Program-made: the position numbers and the translations under genes | Assembly (NCBI GenBank): GCA_965219955.1 | Contig: OZ244799.1 | Coordinates: 2,592,001 to 2,656,000 of the forward strand | Direction of reading: 5' to 3' | Source: a bacterium | GTDB lineage: Bacteria > UBA8248 | DNA: 64,000 bases | Part shown: positions 8,540 through 50,116 of the stretch, piece by piece | Layout of the letters: every line of letters starts with the position of its first letter | Position numbering within the stretch: position 1 is the first letter of the stretch | The notes under the pieces: generated by a model | What the model saw: the letters and a program-made list of their open reading frames with translations, nothing else | Told to the model about the DNA's origin: nothing | The model's database searches: none

Positions 8540-9565
8540 TCAGATGACCGGCGCAGGCTCCCTGTAGACCTGTTTGTTCGTCATCAGCGCCCAGGCGATG
8601 CGCGCCATCCTGTTCGCCAGCGCCACCGCGACCAGCATACGAGGCTTGCGCGCCAGCATCCGGGCCAGCCACGAGCCCGGTGGCGCGCCGCGCTGGTCCG
8701 CCCAGCGCACCACCACCATCGCGCCCATGATCAACAGCCGCCTGATGTCGCGCTGACCCATCTTCGATATCTTGCCCAGCCGCGCCTTGCCGCCCGTGGA
8801 GTGCTGCCGGGGTACGAGTCCGAGCCAGGCGGAGAAGTCCCGCCCGCACCGGAAGCTCTCCATCGGCGGCGCGAAGGCCAGTATCGCCGACGCGCAGATC
8901 GGCCCGACCCCCGGGATGCTCATCAGACGCCTCGCCTCTTCGTCCTCGTAAGCGCCGGCCCGGATACGGCTCTCCAGGTCCCCGATCTTCCTGTTGAGGC
9001 CGGCAATTTGCCCGAGCAGAAGCCCGCCCAGTTCGTGCACCGTCTCCGGCAGCCCCGAGTCCGGGTCCGCAACGGCCGACGCCAGCCGCGCGACGTGAGC
9101 GAGACCCTTGGGAGCGATGACGCCGAACTCCGCCAGGTGCCCGCGCAAGGCGTTGCTCGTCTGCGTACGCTGGCGAACCAGCAAGTCGCGTGTGCGGAAC
9201 AGCATCCCCAGGGACTGCTGCTCTTCGGTCTTCACCGCCACGAACCGCATCGTCGGCCGGGAGGCCGCCTCGCAGATCGCTTCCGCATCCGAGGTGTCGT
9301 TCTTCTGCCGTTTGACGAAAGGCTTCACGTAGACCGGTGGCATGATCTTCACCTCATGGCCGAGTTCACCGATCTCGCGGCCCCAATAGTGCGCGCTCCC
9401 GCATGCCTCCATCGCAACCTCACACCGCGGCTGCGATTCCAGAAAACCCAATACCTTCCCCCGGGTCAGCTTCTTGCGGAACGCGACCGACCCGTCCGGG
9501 CGCGCACCGTGGAGTTGAAAACCGTGTTTCGCCAAGTCGATACCGATGATGTGGACCTGTTCCAT
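8540..9565 (-). CDS. IS110 family transposase (DEDD recombinase)
   Basis: IGIDLAK, MEACG, KNDTSDAEAI, GLVPRQHSTGGK motifs. Confidence 0.95.
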   Translation of the reverse strand: MEQVHIIGIDLAKHGFQLHGARPDGSVAFRKKLTRGKVLGFLESQPRCEVAMEACGSAHYWGREIGELGHEVKIMPPVYVKPFVKRQKNDTSDAEAICEAASRPTMRFVAVKTEEQQSLGMLFRTRDLLVRQRTQTSNALRGHLAEFGVIAPKGLAHVARLASAVADPDSGLPETVHELGGLLLGQIAGLNRKIGDLESRIRAGAYEDEEARRLMSIPGVGPICASAILAFAPPMESFRCGRDFSAWLGLVPRQHSTGGKARLGKISKMGQRDIRRLLIMGAMVVVRWADQRGAPPGSWLARMLARKPRMLVAVALANRMARIAWALMTNKQVYREPAPVI

Positions 9566-40636: not shown

Positions 40637-41980
40637 GAGAGTGTCCGAAGTCTTGTGTAAGTAAGGGTCGAGGGTTCACACTTCACCAGGAGGAGGACCT
40701 TTGATGACGAGACTGAGACCTGAGCTATTGGACGAGTTGCTGTCCGGCTACGAGAAGCCGGAAGACCTGTTGGGCGAGGACGGGCTGTTCAAGCAGCTCA
40801 AGGAGGCTCTTGTGGAGCGCGCGCTGGGCGCGGAGTTGAGCGAGCACCTCGGCTACGAGAAGGGAGACCCAGCCGGACGAGGTAGTGGCAACAGCCGCAA
40901 CGGGCATTCCGGCAAGACGGTTCTGAGCGATGATGGCGAGTTGGACCTGGCGGTTCCCCGGGACCGCAACGGGACGTTCGAGCCGGCGATCGTGCCCAAG
41001 GGGGAGCGGCGCCTCGAGGGTTTCGACGAGCGCATCGTGTCGCTGTACGCGCGCGGGATGAGCGTGCGCGAGATCCGGGGCCACCTCGAGGAGTTGTACG
41101 GGGTATCGGTATCGCCGGACCTGATCAGCCGGGTGACCGACGCCGTGCTAGAGGAGGTGCGGGAGTGGCAGAACCGGCCCCTGGACCCTGTTTATCCGGT
41201 CGTGTTCTTCGACGCGCTGCGGGTGAAGATCCGCGACGAGGGCCTGGTTCGGAACAAGGCGGTCTACCTCGCCCTGGCGATTACCTCCGAGGGCGACAAG
41301 GAGGTGCTGGGGCTTTGGATCGAGCAGACCGAGGGGGCGAAGTTCTGGCTCAAGGTGATGAACGAGCTCCAGGCCCGGGGCCTGCAGGACATTCTGGTCG
41401 CGGTGGTGGACGGGCTCGCAGGCTTTCCCGACGCCATCGGCACGGTATTCCCGCGCACCGCGGTCCAGACCTGCATCGTCCATCTGATACGCAATTCGAT
41501 GTCGTTCGTCGCCTGGAAGGACCGCCGGAAGGTCATGCCCGATCTCAAGGCGGTCTACCGGGCCGAGACGCTCGAAGCCGCGGCGGCCAGGCTCGATGAG
41601 TTCGAAGCCCGCTGGGGGGAGCGCTACCCGGCGGTGGCTCCCGCCTGGCGTCGCGCCTGGGAGCATGTGGCGCCGATGTTCGCCTTCCCGCCGGCCATCC
41701 GGAAGATGATCTATACGACCAACGCCCTGGAGAGCCTGCATCGGTCGTTGCGCAAGATCATCAAGACCCGGGGAAGCTTTCCCAGCGACGAGGCGGCGAC
41801 GAAGTTGCTGTTCCTGGCGATACGCAACGCCGGAGTCCGTTGGCGCCGCCCAGTTGACTGGACCGCCGCGAAGGGGCAATTTGCCATTCTGTTCGAGGAT
41901 CGCTTTCCTGGCTCAGCTAGCTGAGCCAGGAAAGCCCAAAGACCCGAGACCGTGGCTTACACAGATAATCGGACATACCC
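40637..41980 (+). mobile_element. IS256 family element, copy A (1344 bp)
   Basis: imperfect IRs; 8-bp TSD tgacaaaa. Confidence 0.95.
40701..41924 (+). CDS. IS256 family transposase
   Basis: VFFDALRVKIR, VVDGLAGF, QTCIVHLIRNS, YTTNALES. Confidence 0.95.
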   Translation: MMTRLRPELLDELLSGYEKPEDLLGEDGLFKQLKEALVERALGAELSEHLGYEKGDPAGRGSGNSRNGHSGKTVLSDDGELDLAVPRDRNGTFEPAIVPKGERRLEGFDERIVSLYARGMSVREIRGHLEELYGVSVSPDLISRVTDAVLEEVREWQNRPLDPVYPVVFFDALRVKIRDEGLVRNKAVYLALAITSEGDKEVLGLWIEQTEGAKFWLKVMNELQARGLQDILVAVVDGLAGFPDAIGTVFPRTAVQTCIVHLIRNSMSFVAWKDRRKVMPDLKAVYRAETLEAAAARLDEFEARWGERYPAVAPAWRRAWEHVAPMFAFPPAIRKMIYTTNALESLHRSLRKIIKTRGSFPSDEAATKLLFLAIRNAGVRWRRPVDWTAAKGQFAILFEDRFPGSAS

Positions 41981-42413: not shown

Positions 42414-42673
42414 GCCCGACCCAGACGCGCTCGCAACGAAAAATGTTCTTCAACCCGGACAGCCCTTCAGAAGCGGCATTGATAACCCCCATCAGACCAC
42501 GACCGAATATATATTGCGTCAGGCGAAGCCCTGGAGAGGAAATGGTATGGACGCCTTCCCGGCAACCGAGTGCCGCGGTTCGAGAGGGTCGACATGGATC
42601 CTCGATGATCTGTGGCACCCTGAGAAGCTCAAGGGGAAGACATAGTGTCTTCCCAGGCCAACCGGAGGGTCCA

Positions 42674-43702
42674 ATGATGAAGAATGGCAGAACGGTCGTC
42701 GGTGTGGATACGGCGAAAAGCGTGTTCCAGTTGTACTGGGTCGAGGTGGAGACGGGAAAAAGGATGTCCCTGAAGCTGACGCGGGCGAGGTTCCTCGAGC
42801 ACTTCGCCAATCGCGCTCCGTGCCTGATCGCGATGGAGGCGTACGGCGGCTCGCAGCACTGGGCGCGTCGTCTGCGGAAACTGGGCCACGAGGCGAGGTT
42901 GCTTCCGGCGAAGATGGTGAGGCCCTTCGTTGCCGGCAACAAGAATGATTCGCACGACGCGCGCGTGATCTGGACGGCGGTGCAACAGCCTGGGGTAAAG
43001 GCGGTTGCGATCAAGAGCGAGGAACAGCAGGCCGTCCTGGCGCTGCACCGCATGCGCCAGCAGCTGGTGAAGTTCCGCACGGCCCAGATCAACGGCTTGC
43101 GCGGCCTGTTGACCGAATACGGAGAGGTCATGCCACAAGGCCGGGCGGGCATGCGGCGAGACATGGTCGCAGCCCTCGGCCGGATATCGGAGCGACTGCC
43201 GACGATGGTCGTGGACGCCCTGCGAGAGCAATGGGCGCGCGTGGCCCGGCTCGACGAGGAGGTTCGCGGTATCGAGCGCCGCCTGAAGCTGTGGCATCAA
43301 GACAACGCCGAGAGCCGCAGGGTGGCGGAGATCCCCGGTGTCGGTTTGCCGGGCGCGACCGCTTTGGTGGCCGCGATGGGTGATCCCGCCGCGTTCAGTT
43401 CCGGTCGGGAGTTCGCCGCCTAGCTGGGGCTGACGCCCCGCCATGTCGGGACCGGCGGAAAGGTGCGCGTGCTCGGAATCTCCAAGCGGGGCGACAGGTA
43501 CCTGCGCACCTTGCTGATACACGGCGCCCGCGCCGCAATCGTCCACGGCAAGGCGCCGCGTGAATGGGTGTTGCGCCTGGCCGGACGGCGGCCCCCGAAC
43601 GTGGTCGTCGTCGCCCTGGCGAACAAGATGGCGCGCACGATCCGGGCCCTGCTGGCCCATGACCGGGAATACCAACGAAACTTTGTCGGCCATCCTGCGT
43701 AA
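42674..43702 (+). pseudogene. IS110 transposase with an internal TAG (43421-43423)
   Basis: VGVDTAK, KNDSHDA, REFAA*LGLTPRHVGTGGK. Confidence 0.9.
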
Positions 43703-43965
43703 GTCCGGATGGCAAAAGATAACACGAAACGATGAACGGAGGTGGCACGCCGAAGGATTGCGCAAGGCAGGATAAAGTGTGATGGCTAACAGGTCAGACC
43801 GCGGCCCGCAAAGTCTGTATGGCATCGAAGGCGAAAAGCCTTGAAGAGGAAATGAGGCGCGGGTCGGCTGATTCCATCAGGGCCGGCAGGCAAGAGCACC
43901 TGCACCGAAAGGCCGAATATAAAGCTGCAACCTGACAGTCAAAAGCACCGAATCCGCCTTTGCCA
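43703..43965 (+). ncRNA. putative seek/bridge RNA
   Basis: segments atggcatc, agaggaa and atataaa match the intron target flanks and the donor end. Confidence 0.6.
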
Positions 43966-44570
43966 CCGGGAAGGCGTCCATATAAAGGATGCCATGACCT
44001 GAAACCTCTCGTAGCGACCCGGCGGGTTCGACCCCCGCCCGGCAAAGGCCGAGCCGGCCAGCCGGAAGCGAGTCTTGCATGGCGTGCGGCAACGCGCGTC
44101 GTGAAGCGTAGACAGCAGGTGACGAAGCGGCGGGGTAAGCCTCGAAATCGGTCAATCGACGACGCCTTCATTGTTAATCGTGTGGGGGCAGCACCGGAAG
44201 CGCCGCTATCGGCGAGGCGCAACGGGTTGTCCGGGGTCGTGGACCGGCGCAAAGTCACGGGACGGGTCGCCAGGGAACCTGGGAGATCCTGCACTTGCCC
44301 GTGGGCAAGGATGCTGGGAAGGGGATGCCAGCATGCAAATCCAGAACCCGGCCCGTCGCCGGGCCTGTACGGCGGCGGGAGCGCTATATGGCGGACACGA
44401 ACCCCGCAGGCGCCCGCGGAGCCGACCGGCGAAAACAATAAGCCGAAGGACATGCGGGGGCAGGAAGTCGTAGCGCCCTGATAGTACCGCTGAGGGCGGG
44501 GAACCGTGGCCATCGGGACCCGCTGGAGGGAAGCGGGGCGTCATCTGTACAGAGCCACTGATGGGAAACG

Positions 44571-45238
44571 TTGGAGGAAACCCTGAGTTCCACGAACACG
44601 TACACGAAACAGCAGTGGATAGCCGAACAGGTGAGGGAGCATCCGGAACGGGTGTTCACGTCCCTGCACCACCTCATCGACGGCGAGTGGATGCGCGAAG
44701 CGTATCGCCGCACGCGCAAGGATGGGGCGAGGGGCATCGACGGCGTGAGTGCTGCCGACTACGAGAAGGACCTGGAGGCGAATCTTGACGACCTCCTGAG
44801 CCGGATGAAGTCGGGCCGCTACTTTGCGCCGCCGGTGCGCCGGCGCTACATCCCGAAGGCGGACGGCACGAAACGACCGCTCGGCATTCCGACGTTCGAA
44901 GACAAGGTGGCGCAACGGGCAATCCTGATGCTGCTGGAGCCGATTTACGAGACGGACTTTTTGACGTGCTCGTACGGCTTCCGGCCCGGACGGTCGGCTC
45001 ACGATGCCCTGGACGCACTTCGCACGGGCATCATGGAGCAGCGCCAACGATGGGTGATAGACGCGGATTTGAAAGCGTACTTCGACTCAATCCCGCACAC
45101 CCACCTGCGGTCATTCCTCGACCTGCGGATTAAGGACGGCGTCGTAAGGCGCATGATTGACAAATGGCTGAAAGCGGGGGTGCTCGAAGAGGGCACCGTT
45201 CACAGGCCGGTCGCCGGTACTCCTCAAGGTGGGGTCAT
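44571..45238 (+). CDS. ltrA: group II intron RT/maturase, N-terminal part
   Basis: GIDG, IPKADG..RPLGIPT, SYGFRPGRS, DADLKAYFDSI, GTPQGGV. Confidence 0.92.
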
Positions 45239-46889
45239 GACACCCTGAACGCAAAAGGCAACTCTGCTCTCCGGCGCCGCCGTCGTCGGGTTCCGATGGG
45301 ATCGGACTGCCACCGGACGCCCCCGGGATCGGGATGGAATGGCGAATCGTGATCTTCTCCTCACTGACCAGCACCTCCTTGACGAGAAGCCGGACAAGGC
45401 GCTGTTGTTCGCCGGTATCCAGGCTATGGGCGGAGGAGCGAAGCCGCGCCAGGAACCCGCTCAGCGTGTCGGCGAGCCGGAGGTAGGTTTCCCGATCCTT
45501 GACCTGCTCGACAACGGACTGCAGTTCACGATGAAGAGCCTGTTCCTGACGGCGTAGCCCGGGCGTTCTCTCGCGCAGTTCGTCGATGGTGATCAGCTCC
45601 TCCTGATAGGCATTGACCAGGCGGTCGATGCTCTTTCGTGTTCTGATCAACCGGCGCCGCAAGTCGGTCTCGCGCTGCCGGTTGGGGTCGGAGTCGCGGG
45701 CCGCCTCCAGACGCCGATCGATTTCGGCGCCGATCAGCGCCGGATCCTCAAGCAGGCGAACGACTTCGCTCCAGACAACGTCGTCAAGCAGATCCTGGCG
45801 CACCGGCCGATTGTCGCATAGCGGCCCGTTGAGATGCCGCCAGGCGTCGGAGCCCAGGCAGCGGTAATAGTAAATCGTGCGCGCGCTCGTCCGGGTCGAC
45901 GTGCGATACAGGGAATAGCCGCATTTTCGGCACGAGACCAGCCCCTGCACCACGCTGGGCGTCCTGGTCCGGCGCCGCCCGAGGGCCTTGTTCATCTCCA
46001 GCCGCTCTTCGGCCAGGGCAAAGGTCTCCTCGCTGACGACCGCCGGCACCGGAATCTCGATCCATTCCTCGCGCGGTTTCTCGTGACCGCCGGTGGTGGC
46101 GCCGGCCACGCCGCCGCGCAACCGCAAGGGGCGGGTCACGGTTTTTCGCGGCATCTGGCGGGTCTTGCCGAAGCACGCCTTGCCCTTGTACGCCGGGTTG
46201 CGCAGCATCGCCCACACGGTCGAACGCTCCCAGCGTCCGCGCCCGGAGGACGTGGGTACCGCCCGCTCGTTGAGCTTGCGGGTGATCTCGCCAATGCTCA
46301 TGTGGTCATGAGTATAGTAGCGATAGACTTCGCGAACCACCGATGCCTGAGGTTCGAGCACCTCATAGTAGGCATCGCTCTCGGAAGTTTTCTTGTGGTA
46401 GCGGTAGCCATAAGGCGCGCCTCCGAGAACCGCAACTTCACCACACTGCGCACGATGACGCTTGCCGCGACGGGAACGTTCCAGTATCTGTGCGCGCTCG
46501 TATTCCGCGATCATCCCCTGGAACTGGACGAGGAGGTTGTCTTCCGGGGTTTCCATCGACGGCGCGTTCACAAACACGGTCTCAACGCCATGGCGGGCCA
46601 ACTCTTCGATAATCAGCACCTGGTGGGCGTAGCGGCGGCTCAAACGGTCCGGGGCATGGACCACCAATGTATCGAAGCGCCCTTCCGCGGCGAGGTCCCT
46701 GATCCGCTCCAGCCCCGGGCGCTCGAGAACAGCGCCGCTGCAGCCGTCATCCTCGACGAGCATCTCCGGCGCGACGCTGTAGCCGTGGTTCCTGGCGTAT
46801 TCGACCAGCGCCTCGGTCTGGCTCGCGATCGTGCTGCTCTCCCTCTGCTGCTCGCCCGAGACCCGCGCATAAAGGGCTGCGACTTTCAT
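45111..46889 (-). CDS. large serine recombinase (resolvase + recombinase + zinc ribbon + coiled coil)
   Basis: YARVS catalytic Ser, DRLSR, PYGY, CRKC...YYRC zinc ribbon. Confidence 0.95.
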   Translation of the reverse strand: MKVAALYARVSGEQQRESSTIASQTEALVEYARNHGYSVAPEMLVEDDGCSGAVLERPGLERIRDLAAEGRFDTLVVHAPDRLSRRYAHQVLIIEELARHGVETVFVNAPSMETPEDNLLVQFQGMIAEYERAQILERSRRGKRHRAQCGEVAVLGGAPYGYRYHKKTSESDAYYEVLEPQASVVREVYRYYTHDHMSIGEITRKLNERAVPTSSGRGRWERSTVWAMLRNPAYKGKACFGKTRQMPRKTVTRPLRLRGGVAGATTGGHEKPREEWIEIPVPAVVSEETFALAEERLEMNKALGRRRTRTPSVVQGLVSCRKCGYSLYRTSTRTSARTIYYYRCLGSDAWRHLNGPLCDNRPVRQDLLDDVVWSEVVRLLEDPALIGAEIDRRLEAARDSDPNRQRETDLRRRLIRTRKSIDRLVNAYQEELITIDELRERTPGLRRQEQALHRELQSVVEQVKDRETYLRLADTLSGFLARLRSSAHSLDTGEQQRLVRLLVKEVLVSEEKITIRHSIPIPGASGGSPIPSEPDDGGAGEQSCLLRSGCHDPTLRSTGDRPVNGALFEHPRFQPFVNHAPYDAVLNPQVEE

Positions 46890-47043
46890 TCTCGTCTCCT
46901 ATCTCTCGTCTTCGGGCAGGGATTTTGCAGGCTTGATCGGGAACCAGTATCTCGTAGGCATTCTGGAGCCTGGCTGCGAACAGGCGATCGAAACTGTAAT
47001 CAAGTTCAACGCCGGGCAGCGAACCCGGGCGGCGCGCAGCCAT
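46747..47043 (-). CDS. small hypothetical protein (candidate directionality factor)
   Basis: between the regulator and the LSR, overlapping the LSR start; LDYSFDRLFAARLQNAYEILVP. Confidence 0.5.
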   Translation of the reverse strand: MAARRPGSLPGVELDYSFDRLFAARLQNAYEILVPDQACKIPARRREIGDENESRSPLCAGLGRAAEGEQHDREPDRGAGRIRQEPRLQRRAGDARRG

Positions 47044-47044
47044 G

Positions 47045-47365
47045 TCAATCCACGTCCGGGAGAAAGCGCCTCAGTGCCCGTGCGACGACGTCCCCGATGG
47101 CCTGGCCGCTGATCCTGGCGTGCGTACGCAGGGCTTGCGCCAACGCGCCCGGAATCTTGATGGTCATGGGAATCCGGGATTCGACCGGCTCGGCCGGACG
47201 GTCCATGGCCAGCGCCTGCTGAACGTAGCGGTAGGACTGCCGCTGCGATACGCCGAAACGCTGCGATAGCCGCACTACAGCCTCGTTCGTCGTGACGCCC
47301 TGTGCGAGCAGCGAGTAGGCGGCGTTGATCCGTTCGGCTTTCTGGGACTTCGATGATCGCGTCAT
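47045..47365 (-). CDS. HTH/RHH-like DNA-binding protein
   Basis: LSQRFGVSQRQSYRYV HTH; C-terminal MTIKIPGALAQALR..IGDVVARAL RHH-like segment. Confidence 0.7.
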   Translation of the reverse strand: MTRSSKSQKAERINAAYSLLAQGVTTNEAVVRLSQRFGVSQRQSYRYVQQALAMDRPAEPVESRIPMTIKIPGALAQALRTHARISGQAIGDVVARALRRFLPDVD

Positions 47366-47474
47366 TTGACATAATAATATTACCTCTTGAGACGAAGATC
47401 AAGTACCGAGCGATCCCGCCACGCCACAATCTGGCGCTCAAACTGGAAGTTGCCTTTTGCGTTCGGGGTGTCAT

Positions 47475-48147
47475 CTCGCCGATGCTCTCGAACATCTTCC
47501 TGCACCATGTGCTGGACAAGTGGTTCGAGGAATTGGCGAAGCCGCGTCTTAACGGACGGTGCCAACTGGTGCGATACGCCGATGACTTTGTCATCGCCTT
47601 CGAAGACCGCCACAGCGGCAAGCGATTGCTTGACGTGCTGGGCAAACGTCTGGGCCGATACGGACTCACGCTCCATGAGGCCAAGACGCGCTATGTGGAC
47701 TTCCGCCGGAGGCGTCCCTACGGGCGTCACTGGATGGCGTCGGCCACGACGTTCGACTTCCTCGGCTTCACCCACGTCTGGGGGCGGTCGATGCAAGGCA
47801 AGGACGTCGTTCGCCAAATCACGGCGAAAGGCCGCTTCGCCCGCGCGCTGAAATCGGTGCACGAGTGGTGCAAGAGACATCGGCACCTGCCGGTCAAGGC
47901 GCAGCATGACTATCTCGTCCGGGTGATACGAGGCCACTGCGCATATTACGGTCTGACAGGGAACGGCAAGCGTCTTCGGTGGTTCCGCTACCAAGTGGCT
48001 CGCACGTGGCGGAAGTGGCTTGCGCGCCGCAGCCGCCTGCGCCGGATGAACTGGGACCGGATGAACGCGCTTCTCTTGCGATACCCCCTTCCATTTGTCT
48101 CGTACGTGCGTTCTCGGCAAAGCTCCTTGAGCGAACCTGTCAGGTGA
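47475..48147 (+). CDS. ltrA: group II intron RT/maturase, C-terminal part
   Basis: (I)SPMLSNIFLH, RYADDFV, FDFLGF, thumb/X domain RGHCAYY; no endonuclease domain. Confidence 0.92.
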
Positions 48148-50116
48148 GGAACCGAGTGCGTCAGTCGCGCACGCTCGGCTCTGTGGGGGGCGGGGCGCAG
48201 CAATGCCCCCGCCTACCCGTAACCATTCGGCGGCAGGGTGATGGTTTGCGCGTAGCTCATCGCGGATAATCGAAGAGATTCCCCTGAAGGGCTGGTAACA
48301 CGATCCGGCATGTGGTAATCATGTCGGCATGAAGATCTGCACGGAAGCTGTTCAGGCGGAAGTTTCGTTGGCCGAGAGGCCGGATGAGCGATGGCCTCAT
48401 TCCCCCGGGTTGCCCGCAACCGCAGAGGCCTACTGGCGTTCGCTGTACGAGCGAGAACGTGCGCGCGCGGAGTCTGCGGAGGCGCGCTGTGAGGAGTTGC
48501 GGCTCAAGGAGGTGGATTCGCGTGCGCGGGCGGGTTCGCTGAAGTGGTGTCTCGACAACTGCCGGATGAAGCTAGCCGCGAGGGTCGGGAAGTTGAAGGA
48601 AGTCCGCCGCGCGGCGAAGAAGGACGTCGAGGCGCTCGAGGCGGAAGTGGCTCGTCTGGAGAAGCAGCTTCGCAAAGCGGGAGTGGAGCCGGGCAAGCCC
48701 GGCCCGATCGAGTCGCTGCGCAAGGAAGCCGCCCGGCTGCGCAAGGAGGTCACCCGGTTGAACAAGGCTCTCTCGGGCGCGCTGCCTGAGAAGGAGGCCG
48801 CGCGGCTGCGCCGGGCCGTGGAGAAGCGGGAGAAGACGCTTGAGTCACTGCGCAAGGAGCTTGAGGGGCGGGAGAAGGATGTGGCCCGGCTGGAGGATCA
48901 ACTGGCCTGGGAGAAGATGGAGACGGCGGATCACAAGAAGACGATTCAGTATCGTGAAGAGGAGCTAATCCGGCTCTACGGGAAGTTGCGGGAATTGCGC
49001 GACGAGTTGCGTGTCTCGCTCCGGGCCGCGGGCAGAGTGAAGGAGGGGCTGAAGGAGCGGCTGTTGCGCGCGAAGGAGGCGTTGCGCACGAGGTCGTCTC
49101 GTCGGGACGCGGAACTTCGCAAGGCCCTGGGGAGGTCGCGGCGCCAGAAGACGGCGATCGGGTCGCTGTCGAGGGAGAACGGGCGGTTGCGCCGTGCGCT
49201 GCGCAAGTCGGAGGCCCGCCGTGCGCGTCTGGAGGCCGAGCTCGCGAAGCTTCGCGCGACCGGAGCGGTGCTGGCGAGGAGGCTGTTCGGGCGCAGGAGC
49301 GAGCGGCAGGAGAGGCCGCGCACCGGGCGAAGGCGCGGCGGACAGCCCGGCGCCCGGGGCCATGGCCGCACCCCGCGGCCCGCGCTCGATGAGAGGACGG
49401 AAGTCCGCAACCCGCCGGCCGGTGCGCGCGTCTGCGCCGCTTGCGGGAAGCCCTACGCGGCGAACGGCGCCCGTGTGTCGCGCATCGTCGAGATCGAAGT
49501 CTCGGCGTACAGGCGCGTCATCCACCGTACGAGGTGGCGCCGGGGGTGCGGTTGCGCGTCCTCGCCCACCGAGGTGTCGGCGCCGCCCGCGCCGCGCCTG
49601 TTCGCGGGCACGGCTTACGGGACGAGCGTGTGGGCGCGCCTGCTGTTCGAACGCTACGCCTGCTTCCGCCCGCTCAACCGGGTCGCCGCGTGGTTGTCGG
49701 ACCAGGGGCTTCCGATCTCGGCGGGGACGCTGGGCGACAGCGCGCACCGGTTCATGCCGCTGTTCGAACCGCTGAACGGGGCGATCCTCGCCCGCCAGAA
49801 CGAGGCGTCGGTGCGCCACGGGGACGAAACGACCTGGCGCGTTCAGTCGCTTCGCGAGCAAGGACGCTCGAACCGCGCCTGGCTGTGGGCCTCGCTGAGC
49901 GCAGACTCCGTCTACTTCCACGTCGACCCCTCGCGGTCTGCTGAGGTCGCGATGAAGCTCTTCGGCGCGGCCGGCTCCCATACGGTACTCGTCTGCGACC
50001 GCTACAGCGCCTACAAGAAGCTGGCGCGCAGGCCCGAGAGGAACTGGCCGCCCTGCCGGCGCAGGCGCGCGAGGGCAAGGCGCTTCGCTCGCTGCTGAAC
50101 CACCGCGAGGGGCTGA

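What the first reader, a model, noticed from the sequence alone, without database searches (positions are those of the whole stretch)
42535..43995. IS1111 whose guide RNA appears programmed against group II intron domain I
Seen: removing the IS rebuilds the intron 5' end ttgcgtcaggcgaagccctg-gagagg-AA-ggatgccatgacctgaaa-cctctc, so the IS sits beside the alpha loop. Its non-coding region contains agaggaa (43845-43851, equal to the left flank plus core) and atggcatc (43819-43826, the reverse complement of the right flank 43988-43995), either side of a short hairpin. It also contains atataaa (43917-43923, equal to the donor right end) and ccat. Established: IS110/IS1111 recombinases use bridge/seek RNAs with target and donor guide loops. 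Inference: an RNA-guided element specialised on a ribozyme gene. The transposase now has a TAG, so it is probably non-autonomous.
Basis: partly seen in the sequence, partly recalled or inferred. Interest (0 to 1): 0.85.

Follow-up and report, generated by a model that had tools for sequence, protein, structure and literature searches.

The report
Guided IS1111 element inside an intron
A dead copy of an RNA-guided jumping gene sits in the first 30 bases of a self-splicing intron exactly where its own guide RNA points, but its relatives aim at ordinary gene starts, which this intron site happens to resemble.

Summary
An IS1111-type element (about 42540-43984) splits the 5' end of a group II intron. 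More than 20 uninterrupted intron copies in sister genomes show the empty site.

That loop belongs to a conserved RNA fold in the 3' non-coding region. In 59 insertion events of related elements (36 different guide pairs), these two loop segments change together with the flanking DNA. A third segment (43917-43923) tracks the element's right end in 62 of 64 loci. This is a seekRNA/bridge-type guide, and it matches this site.

The claim that the element is specialised on a ribozyme gene is not supported:
- In relatives, 53 of 57 insertions lie between a GGAG-like ribosome-binding motif and an ATG, and 39 of 57 of those ATGs open real reading frames.
- The intron site (AGAGGAGGATGCCATG) looks like such a gene start. 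Two real gene starts in this genome differ from it by one base.
- Among 44 genomes of the order, only this one has the element in the intron. The 90%-identical sibling sits in a coding gene and carries a different guide.
- Sponge-metagenome contigs do repeat the same junction, so intron targeting within one species stays open.

The TAG replaces a conserved Trp codon. This is a new member of a known kind.

The parts
42540..43984 (+). IS1111-type insertion sequence. Ends are set by the 7-bp left / 3-bp right extension rule around the sub-terminal repeats, and are ambiguous by up to 2 nt because A-runs flank both junctions (42540-42542 and 43984-43986).
   Evidence: The rule is from PMC11187229, Introduction. 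A contig joint 42539->43986 appears in three runs.
42546..42562 (+). Left sub-terminal inverted repeat TATGGACGCCTTCCCGG.
   Evidence: Read. The same repeat is found in 62 related loci.
43966..43982 (+). Right sub-terminal inverted repeat CCGGGAAGGCGTCCATA.
42674..43702 (+). Transposase gene (342 codons), broken by an in-frame TAG at 43421-43423 that lies just before the GLTPRHVGTG motif.
   Evidence: Pfam hits. Relatives have Trp (TGG) at this codon: L014 and five other loci, and A>G at 43422 in four runs.
43776..43935 (+). Conserved structured part of the 3' non-coding region, the predicted seekRNA/bridge-type RNA. Its true transcript ends are unknown.
   Evidence: Alignment A1 of 40 distinct sequences. 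34 pairs, 99.3% of cells paired, 10 pairs with compensatory changes, 0 of 500 shuffles as good, slid controls at most 3.
43817..43828 (+). 5' side of the target loop (T segment). ATGGCATC at 43819-43826 is complementary to the top strand at 43988-43995.
   Evidence: It is hypervariable among relatives and matches each relative's own right flank.
43829..43842 (+). Hairpin that separates the two guide segments (AGGC GAAAA GCCTT).
   Evidence: Compensatory changes in 3 of 4 pairs.
43843..43854 (+). 3' side of the target loop (B segment). AGAGGAAATG at 43845-43854 equals the left junction 42535-42544, that is, target left half plus core plus the first bases of the element.
43802..43866 (+). Helix closing the target loop (43802-43809 with 43859-43866; 43813-43816 with 43855-43858), together with everything it encloses.
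   Evidence: Pairs 28/96 and 31/93 each switch in 18 of 40 sequences.
43917..43923 (+). Donor-end guide ATATAAA, the same sense as the right end plus core. It follows the hairpin 43881-43914.
   Evidence: Its first six bases equal the right-end extension in 62 of 64 loci across four variants (ATATAA, ATACAA, ATATAG, ATACAG).
42534..42541 (+). Left half of the target inside the intron (GAGAGG plus A-run). GAGAGG is the 5' strand of a domain I helix.
43985..44010 (+). Right half of the target (A-run, GGATGCCATG), the rest of the hairpin loop, and the 3' strand CCTCTC (44005-44010).
   Evidence: The 74%-identical intron copy has GAAGGG...CTCTTC, that is, two compensatory changes.
42514..48222 (+). 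Group II intron, broken twice. It contains a 5' TTGCG, domain I-IV RNA at 44029-44246, reverse-transcriptase reading-frame pieces at 44571-45248 and 47353-48147, and domains V/VI at 48147-48222.
   Evidence: Rfam RF02005 127 bits, E 1.6e-36. RF00029 34.4 bits, below its gathering score of 40. RVT_1 found on both pieces.

Best explanation
This is an ordinary RNA-guided insertion by an IS1111-family element, now dead. It landed in a sequence at the 5' end of a group II intron that imitates the kind of site its clade normally uses.

The RNA (shown). The 3' non-coding region folds into an RNA with an internal loop, and the two single-stranded sides of that loop are guides. The 5' side (T, ATGGCATC) is complementary to the top strand just right of the crossover. 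The 3' side (B, AGAGGAAATG) has the sense of the top strand left of the crossover, plus the core A(A) and the first bases of the element. A second unit (hairpin 43881-43914 followed by ATATAAA) reads the element's own right end.

The reaction (inferred by analogy). By analogy with ISEc11 and IS621, the element excises as a circle. The RNA holds the circle junction (CCATATA-AA-ATGGT...) and the target (GAGAGG-A(A/G)-GATGCCAT) together. The DEDD/Thr-Gly recombinase then exchanges strands at the core without duplicating the target.

The clade's target (shown). In this clade the conserved parts of the guides (GGAG..AA in B, AUG or AUC at the 5' end of T) direct insertion between a Shine-Dalgarno-like motif and a start codon. 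Four or five lineage-specific bases choose which start region.

Why the intron. The intron reads AGAGG-A-GGATGCC-ATG, a look-alike of such a start region, so it was hit.

State of this copy (shown). The TAG at codon 250 removes the C-terminal catalytic domain, and the genome has no second copy. This copy cannot move by itself. The intron is also inactivated.
For: 1. Family: both Pfam domains, the GLTPRHVGTG motif, 17-bp sub-terminal repeats and a 263-nt downstream non-coding region.
2. Fold: 34 pairs, 99.3% of cells paired, 10 pairs with compensatory changes, 0 of 500 shuffles reach this, slid controls at most 3. The flagged motifs map to the unpaired loop sides 43817-43828 and 43843-43854.
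3. Guide-flank covariation over 59 distinct insertion events and 36 guide pairs. The T segment against its own right flank has a mean longest match of 6.37 nt, against 3.67 for guides of other lineages. Matches of 8 nt or more occur in 20 of 59 own pairings and 4 of 2065 cross pairings. For B the means are 9.05 and 6.08. On the window's flanks no other guide class exceeds 6 nt (T), while its own scores 8.
4. The closest sibling L014 (90% identical) has T ATTATAAC and B GCGGGAAATG. Its flanks read ...GCGCGGG|AAATGG and ...ATAAA|TATAATG.
5. The donor guide equals the right-end extension in 62 of 64 loci over four sequence variants.
6. Gene-start targeting: 53 of 57 events have an ATG 5-13 nt beyond the right repeat, and 39 of 57 open at least 60 codons. 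At random positions in the same loci the figure is 236 of 2800.
7. The two one-mismatch look-alikes of the intron 15-mer in this genome are real gene starts, each opening at least 134 codons.
8. Only one copy of the element exists in the genome. Trp is conserved where the window has TAG.
Against: 1. The window's T match starts one base (two-A target) or zero bases (single-A target) from the core, and its CAT lies 12 nt from the repeat end. Most relatives have 9-11 nt. The geometry is at the edge of the family range, although L102 and L104 share it.
2. Own-flank T matches are short (4-5 nt) in 23 of 59 events, so pairing is not the whole rule.
3. The guide type of the window (ATGGCA[T/A]C) also occurs in the decayed relics L015 and L016 of two other species. 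Their flanks do not match it. I can only explain this by later rearrangement.
4. No transcript ends, no RNA-protein association and no transposition were observed. The mechanism is inferred by analogy with ISEc11/IS621.
5. The same element-intron junctions recur in metagenome contigs of three studies. This fits the rival (intron targeting) as well as simple inheritance within one species.
Confidence: 0.75

Rival explanations
1. Intron-specialised lineage. This guide variant has been selected to home into the multi-copy group II intron. The intron acts as a renewable, harmless landing pad, in the way other IS1111 members use attC sites, REP elements or transposon ends. The element has inserted independently into several intron copies.
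For: The guide matches the majority intron sequence with ideal geometry: AGAGG + A, then GATGCCAT directly after the core. 13 of 22 close intron copies in sister genomes carry the exact GATGCCAT. All 13 exact 15-mer sites in 23 genomes of the genus lie at intron 5' ends, though that is expected for any 15-mer of a repeated element. Contigs of sponge-metagenome runs from three studies carry the right junction (X7, X8, and the RNA run X14) and the left junction (X5, X7, X8). In X7 and X8 the letters upstream of the intron differ from the window. X8 has one A fewer at the right junction. A near-identical guide persists in relics in two other species.
Against: Among 44 species-representative genomes of the order, only the window's genome has the element in an intron. 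More than 20 intron copies in 8 genomes are empty, including those in G017 and G018, which hold relics of the element elsewhere. There is one copy per genome. The differing upstream letters in X7 and X8 are linked to the element across only 28 shared bases in short-word contigs, so they may be chimeric. X5 shows the same locus as the window. The whole clade targets gene starts, and the intron site is one mismatch from two gene starts. Two exact scans of metagenome contigs for the guide region found nothing.
Confidence: 0.2
2. Passenger. The element inserted once, and the intron then copied itself, element included, to new sites by retrohoming. That would explain element-bearing introns in different contexts.
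For: Only the possibly different upstream contexts in X7 and X8.
Against: The element splits a domain I helix/loop 27 nt from the 5' end and adds 1.4 kb to the ribozyme core. The window's intron also has a broken reverse-transcriptase gene. All other intron copies examined lack the element.
Confidence: 0.03
3. Coincidence. The short matches between the non-coding region and the flanks are chance, and the element chose the site by protein-DNA recognition.
For: A 7-nt match to the left flank is common in shuffles (1930 of 5000). The same 7-mer length also matches in the hairpin (AGGCGAA at 43829).
Against: Both matches in order occurred in only 16 of 5000 shuffles. Lineage-by-lineage covariation of both loop segments with the flanks, and of the donor segment with the right end, cannot arise by chance.
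Confidence: 0.02

Closest known systems
ISEc11 / ISXne4 and other IS1111-family elements with a seekRNA (Siddiquee et al. 2024, PMC11187229; abstract, Introduction and four Results sections read)
   Same: DEDD transposase of about 340 aa with the GL-P----(S/T)G motif. Sub-terminal inverted repeats with asymmetric extensions. Long non-coding region downstream of tnp. The top-strand complement lies 5' of the bottom-strand match. Close relatives are naturally retargeted by swapping only the guide bases, as L014 is relative to the window.
   Different: The target here lies inside a group II intron. The clade's general target is a Shine-Dalgarno-plus-ATG motif. A donor-end guide that covaries with the right end is visible here, whereas the sections I read describe only target matches. 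Nothing here is experimentally shown.
IS621 bridge RNA (IS110 family; recalled from Durrant et al. 2024 and Hiraizumi et al. 2024, seen here only in search listings)
   Same: One RNA with a target-binding unit and a donor-binding unit, each with one guide per strand around a short core.
   Different: In IS621 the RNA is encoded upstream of the recombinase and the order of the strand matches is reversed (PMC11187229 abstract). IS621 has no sub-terminal repeats.
IS900 of Mycobacterium avium subsp. paratuberculosis (IS110 family). Doran et al. [quoted passage not shown]
   Same: An IS110-superfamily element that inserts, in one orientation, at ribosome-binding-site/start-codon signals.
   Different: IS900 belongs to a different branch without sub-terminal repeats. 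IS900 is said to use the host signals for an antisense reading frame (hed). Here the ATG in the left end opens only 8-11 codons in most relatives. It is in frame with tnp and open in 2 of 33 distinct relatives, and also in the window.
IS1111 members that target other mobile or repeated elements: ISKpn4/ISPst6 (attC sites) and ISPa11 (REP), named in PMC11187229; IS4321 is named there only for its target logo, and that its target is Tn21-type ends is recalled.
   Same: A guided element whose landing site lies in another repeated or mobile element.
   Different: For those elements many independent insertions define the target. Here only one insertion is certain.

Membership tests
IS1111 family (within the IS110 superfamily) | N-terminal DEDD (RuvC-like) transposase domain | tested here: met
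   PF01548, E 1.1e-11, residues 9-149. The four catalytic residues were not mapped individually.
IS1111 family (within the IS110 superfamily) | C-terminal PF02371 domain with a GL-P----S(t)G motif | tested here: met
   PF02371, E 1.1e-19. GLTPRHVGTG follows the TAG directly. The motif is as given in PMC11187229.
IS1111 family (within the IS110 superfamily) | Sub-terminal inverted repeats of 11-13 bp or more with short asymmetric terminal extensions | tested here: met
   17-bp perfect repeat at 42546-42562 / 43966-43982. The family repeat ATGGACGCCTCCC is present in 62 related loci.
IS1111 family (within the IS110 superfamily) | Long non-coding region downstream of tnp | tested here: met
   43703-43965, 263 nt.
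IS1111 family (within the IS110 superfamily) | Transposase length 330-350 aa | tested here: met
   342 codons if the TAG is read through as X.
IS1111 family (within the IS110 superfamily) | seekRNA with the top-strand complement 5' of the bottom-strand match | tested here: met
   T at 43819-43826 precedes B at 43845-43854. The same order holds in all 64 aligned loci.
IS1111 family (within the IS110 superfamily) | RNA co-purifies with the transposase and is required for movement | not testable with these tools
   Contigs of an RNA-library run cover 43568-44049, but that does not show a transcript.
IS1111 family (within the IS110 superfamily) | Orientation-specific insertion without target duplication | tested here: inconclusive
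   GGAG lies to the left and CATG to the right in 53 of 57 events. Whether one or two A are shared or duplicated cannot be settled because of the A-runs.
Rfam-curated bridge/seek RNA family | Match to a curated covariance model | tested here: not met
   No Rfam 15 family matches 43703-43986 at E up to 1. The structure rests on my own alignment A1.
Group II intron (host of the insertion) | Domain I-IV and domain V/VI RNA plus an intron-encoded reverse transcriptase | tested here: met
   RF02005, 127 bits. RF00029, 34.4 bits, below its gathering score of 40. RVT_1 found on both reading-frame pieces. More than 20 copies with the same 5' boundary occur at different loci.
Group II intron (host of the insertion) | The interrupted hairpin loop is the alpha loop of domain I | not tested
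   The Rfam model starts 42 nt downstream. The only 6-nt complement of the loop in domain I (44078-44083) lies inside a modelled helix.

The most novel reading that the evidence does not exclude
A seekRNA lineage has shifted from gene starts to a look-alike site in the first 30 bases of a multi-copy group II intron, and now uses intron copies as its landing pad. That would be one RNA-guided mobile element parasitising a ribozyme-based one. On this reading, the element-bearing introns seen with different upstream sequence in sponge-symbiont metagenomes are independent guided insertions.
Probability: 0.2. Interest if true: 0.6.

Novelty: new member of a known kind. Interest (0 to 1): 0.4.

Why it matters
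This is a clean natural example in which the guide loops of an IS1111 seekRNA can be read directly from sequence. The 36 naturally reprogrammed relatives give a covariation-backed fold, a donor-end guide and the tolerated spacing between guide match and crossover. People engineering bridge/seek recombinases could use that information.

It also shows that a whole IS1111 clade aims at ribosome-binding-site/start-codon regions, as was reported long ago for IS900. An intron can be hit simply because it resembles such a region. The intron hit itself is a curiosity unless repeated independent insertions are shown.

Tried and rejected
Searches that found nothing or could not be run:
- A single-sequence fold of 43776-43935 is no better than shuffles (z -0.58). 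Only the alignment-based fold is informative.
- Exact scans of metagenome contigs for the guide region found no hit (36-mer, 24-mer).
- Supplementary files of PMC11187229 were closed. They hold target logos for about 300 elements and may already list gene-start or intron targets.

Ideas rejected:
- That the host ribosome-binding site drives an N-terminally extended transposase from the ATG in the left end. That ATG is in frame and open in the window, but in only 2 of 33 distinct relatives.
- That the shared 29 nt left of L014 and L015 is part of the element or another intron end. It reads as a coding frame that looks like a response-regulator N-terminus (my reading, not scanned). Rfam finds no intron in L014-L018.
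- That 'all exact target sites are introns' supports specialisation. Any 15-mer of a repeated element would behave this way.
- A candidate alpha' partner: inconclusive.

Limits on the evidence:
- Parts of the stretch without contig cover prove nothing.
- Rows dropped before counts: 17 of the 80 loci gave no repeat pair (many are cut contigs). L055 gave a spurious pair and was removed. 5 of 64 loci were duplicates or had flanks under 25 nt.
- Literature searches. The only paper holding IS110 + group II intron + bridge RNA is a language-model preprint seen as a listing. 'Intron' occurs 0 times in PMC11187229. These searches found no report of an IS110/IS1111 element targeting a group II intron, but subscription journals are not covered.
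Full report
WHAT IS THERE

Window 42540-43984 (+) is an insertion sequence. It has perfect 17-bp sub-terminal inverted repeats (42546-42562 and 43966-43982) and a 342-codon transposase frame (42674-43702). A 263-nt non-coding region follows the gene. The protein matches both Pfam domains of IS110/IS1111 transposases and carries GLTPRHVGTG. This is the GL-P----S(t)G motif that Siddiquee et al. give for IS1111 transposases (PMC11187229, section read). The frame holds one TAG at 43421-43423, directly before that motif.

L014 and five more distant relatives have Trp at this codon. Contigs of four public runs read G instead of A at 43422. The stop is therefore a private nonsense mutation that removes the C-terminal domain. 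The genome holds no second copy. The only other relatives are nine genes at 38-40% amino-acid identity.

THE HOST SEQUENCE

The flanks belong to a group II intron:
- Rfam D1-D4 model at 44029-44246 (127 bits).
- A domain V/VI match at 48147-48222 (34.4 bits, below its gathering score).
- Two pieces of a reverse-transcriptase frame.

The genus holds many copies of this intron (9 of 23 genomes). In 22 close copies the sequence runs straight through the insertion point. 20 read CTGGAGAGG-A-GGA(T/C)GCCATGACC and 2 have AAA. Contigs of three metagenome runs also join 42539 to 43986.

The element sits at the 5' edge of a hairpin loop closed by GAGAGG/CCTCTC. A 74%-identical intron copy in the same genome has GAAGGG/CTCTTC, which is two compensatory changes. 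I could not test whether this loop is the 'alpha' loop.

THE GUIDE

I collected 80 related loci from public genomes (66-90% amino-acid identity) and located the sub-terminal repeats in 62 of them. I then aligned the last 250 nt of each element. The region is strongly conserved except for two short segments.

An alignment of 40 distinct sequences gives a consensus fold of 34 pairs. 99.3% of cells are paired and 10 pairs show compensatory changes. No shuffle out of 500 is as good, and structures slid by 1-3 columns reach at most 3 such pairs.

In that fold the two variable segments are the unpaired sides of one internal loop (window 43817-43828 and 43843-43854). A small hairpin (43829-43842) separates them. 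A helix (43802-43816 with 43855-43866) closes the loop. Their order, with the top-strand complement first, is the order reported for IS1111 seekRNAs.

Covariation with the flanks settles the function. Over 59 distinct insertion events with 36 different guide pairs:
- The 5' segment matches the reverse complement of its own right flank over 6.37 nt on average. Guides of other lineages reach 3.67 nt.
- Matches of 8 nt or more occur in 20 of 59 own pairings and 4 of 2065 cross pairings.
- The 3' segment matches its own left junction over 9.05 nt, against 6.08 nt for other lineages.

The closest sibling, L014 (90% identical), has ATTATAAC and GCGGGAAATG where the window has ATGGCATC and AGAGGAAATG. 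Its flanks read ...GCGCGGG|AAATGG and ...ATAAA|TATAATG.

A third segment, ATATAAA at 43917-43923 after a second hairpin, has the sense of the element's right end. Its first six bases equal the right-end extension in 62 of 64 loci across four variants. The 'ccat' lies in an invariant predicted helix and says nothing.

Taken alone, the window's matches are only moderately improbable: 16 of 5000 shuffles give both in order. The comparative evidence carries the claim.

THE CROSSOVER

Variants with G instead of A (for example L044, L050, L088) show the same two bases (GA) at both junctions, in the B segment and in the donor guide. I therefore read a two-base core, AA in most elements. Its second base at the right junction often comes from the target, as in L036, L047, L082 and L085.

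With the majority intron sequence the target is then GAGAGG-AG-GATGCCAT. That is five or six bases matched by B, then the core, then eight bases matched by T directly after it. The window, X7 and X14 have one more A at the right junction than X8. I cannot say whether that reflects two events or a later slip.

WHAT THE CLADE TARGETS

In relatives the left flank ends in GGAG(A/G). The right flank carries an ATG 5-13 nt beyond the repeat in 53 of 57 events. In 39 of 57 that ATG opens at least 60 codons, against 236 of 2800 random positions in the same loci. The conserved parts of the guides encode this: GGAG..AA in B, and AUG or AUC at the 5' end of T.

The clade therefore inserts between the ribosome-binding site and the start codon of genes. 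Four or five lineage-specific bases choose which gene. Targeting of translation-initiation signals is on record for IS900 of the same superfamily. I saw this only as the title of Doran et al. 1997 in a reference list.

The intron reads AGAGGAGGATGCC-ATG-ACC-TGA, which is a look-alike of such a region. The two one-mismatch copies of this 15-mer in the window's genome are real gene starts, each opening at least 134 codons.

IS IT SPECIALISED ON THE INTRON?

Among 44 species-representative genomes of the order, the junction exists only in the window's genome. The intron copies elsewhere are empty. The relatives of the element are elsewhere too: L014 is in a coding frame that looks like a response-regulator N-terminus (my reading, not scanned), and L015 and L016 are decayed relics.

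Against this, contigs of sponge-metagenome runs from three studies carry the same junctions at 97-99% identity:
- Right junction: X7 record 19 (43043-44126), X8 record 27 (43054-44041) and RNA-library run X14 record 4 (43568-44049).
- Left junction: X5 record 9 has the window's own upstream sequence. X7 record 17 and X8 record 25 show other letters upstream of 42512.

Only 28 shared bases separate the exon from the element, and these are short-word contigs. The different contexts may therefore be assembly artefacts, and I count them as a hint. I give the intron-specialised reading 0.2.

VERDICT

The ecological reading, an element specialised on a ribozyme gene, is not supported. The best account is a guided, gene-start-seeking IS1111 element that hit an intron sequence resembling a gene start and then lost its transposase.

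What is shown: the anatomy, the fold, the covariation, the clade's targets, the empty sites and the nonsense mutation. What is inferred by analogy with ISEc11/IS621: transcription and processing of the RNA, the circle intermediate, and strand exchange at the core.

Noticed in passing
window 45237-47474: A second insertion splits the intron's reverse-transcriptase frame (pieces 44571-45248 and 47353-48147). It is bounded by 27-nt inverted repeats (45237-45263 / 47448-47474, 96% complementary). It carries a 592-aa large serine recombinase on the minus strand (45111-46889; Resolvase, Recombinase and Zn_ribbon_recom domains). Whether it is an integrated element or an inverted segment was not worked out.
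   Followed up: partly
L036-L113 (related loci), left and right junctions: The whole clade of related IS1111-type elements inserts between a GGAG-like ribosome-binding motif and the ATG of genes. 53 of 57 events have the ATG and 39 of 57 open at least 60 codons. The guide loops carry conserved GGAG..AA and AUG/AUC parts.
   Followed up: yes
window 43881-43925 and the same columns in 64 loci: A donor-end guide after a second hairpin covaries with the right-end extension (62 of 64 loci, four variants). Core variants AA and GA appear together in the target guide, the donor guide and both junctions.
   Followed up: yes
L015 (G018) and L016 (G017): Two decayed relics carry a guide almost identical to the window's (ATGGCAAC), but their flanks do not match it. 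L015's left flank is homologous to L014's target over 29 nt. This suggests exchange of the guide region between copies, or later rearrangement.
   Followed up: partly
G000:C1, eight places (e.g. 4138671-4139672) and window about 8561-9550 (-): Nine further IS110/IS1111-type transposase genes at 38-40% amino-acid identity to this one. Eight of them are near-identical copies of one element. Their guides and targets were not examined.
   Followed up: no
run X14 (RNA library), record 4, beyond window 44049: The contig leaves the window's sequence at 44049 and continues with letters resembling the intron's domain VI (compare window about 48195-48222). This suggests an internally deleted, ORF-less derivative of the element-bearing intron in that sample.
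   Followed up: no
window 42543-42673: The ATG in the element's left end is in frame with the transposase, with no stop between, giving a possible 44-residue extension behind the intron's GGAG-like motif. The same holds in only 2 of 33 distinct relatives, so it is probably accidental.
   Followed up: yes
window 40701-41924 (+): A 407-aa open frame just upstream looks to me like another transposase. It was not scanned against any library.
   Followed up: no
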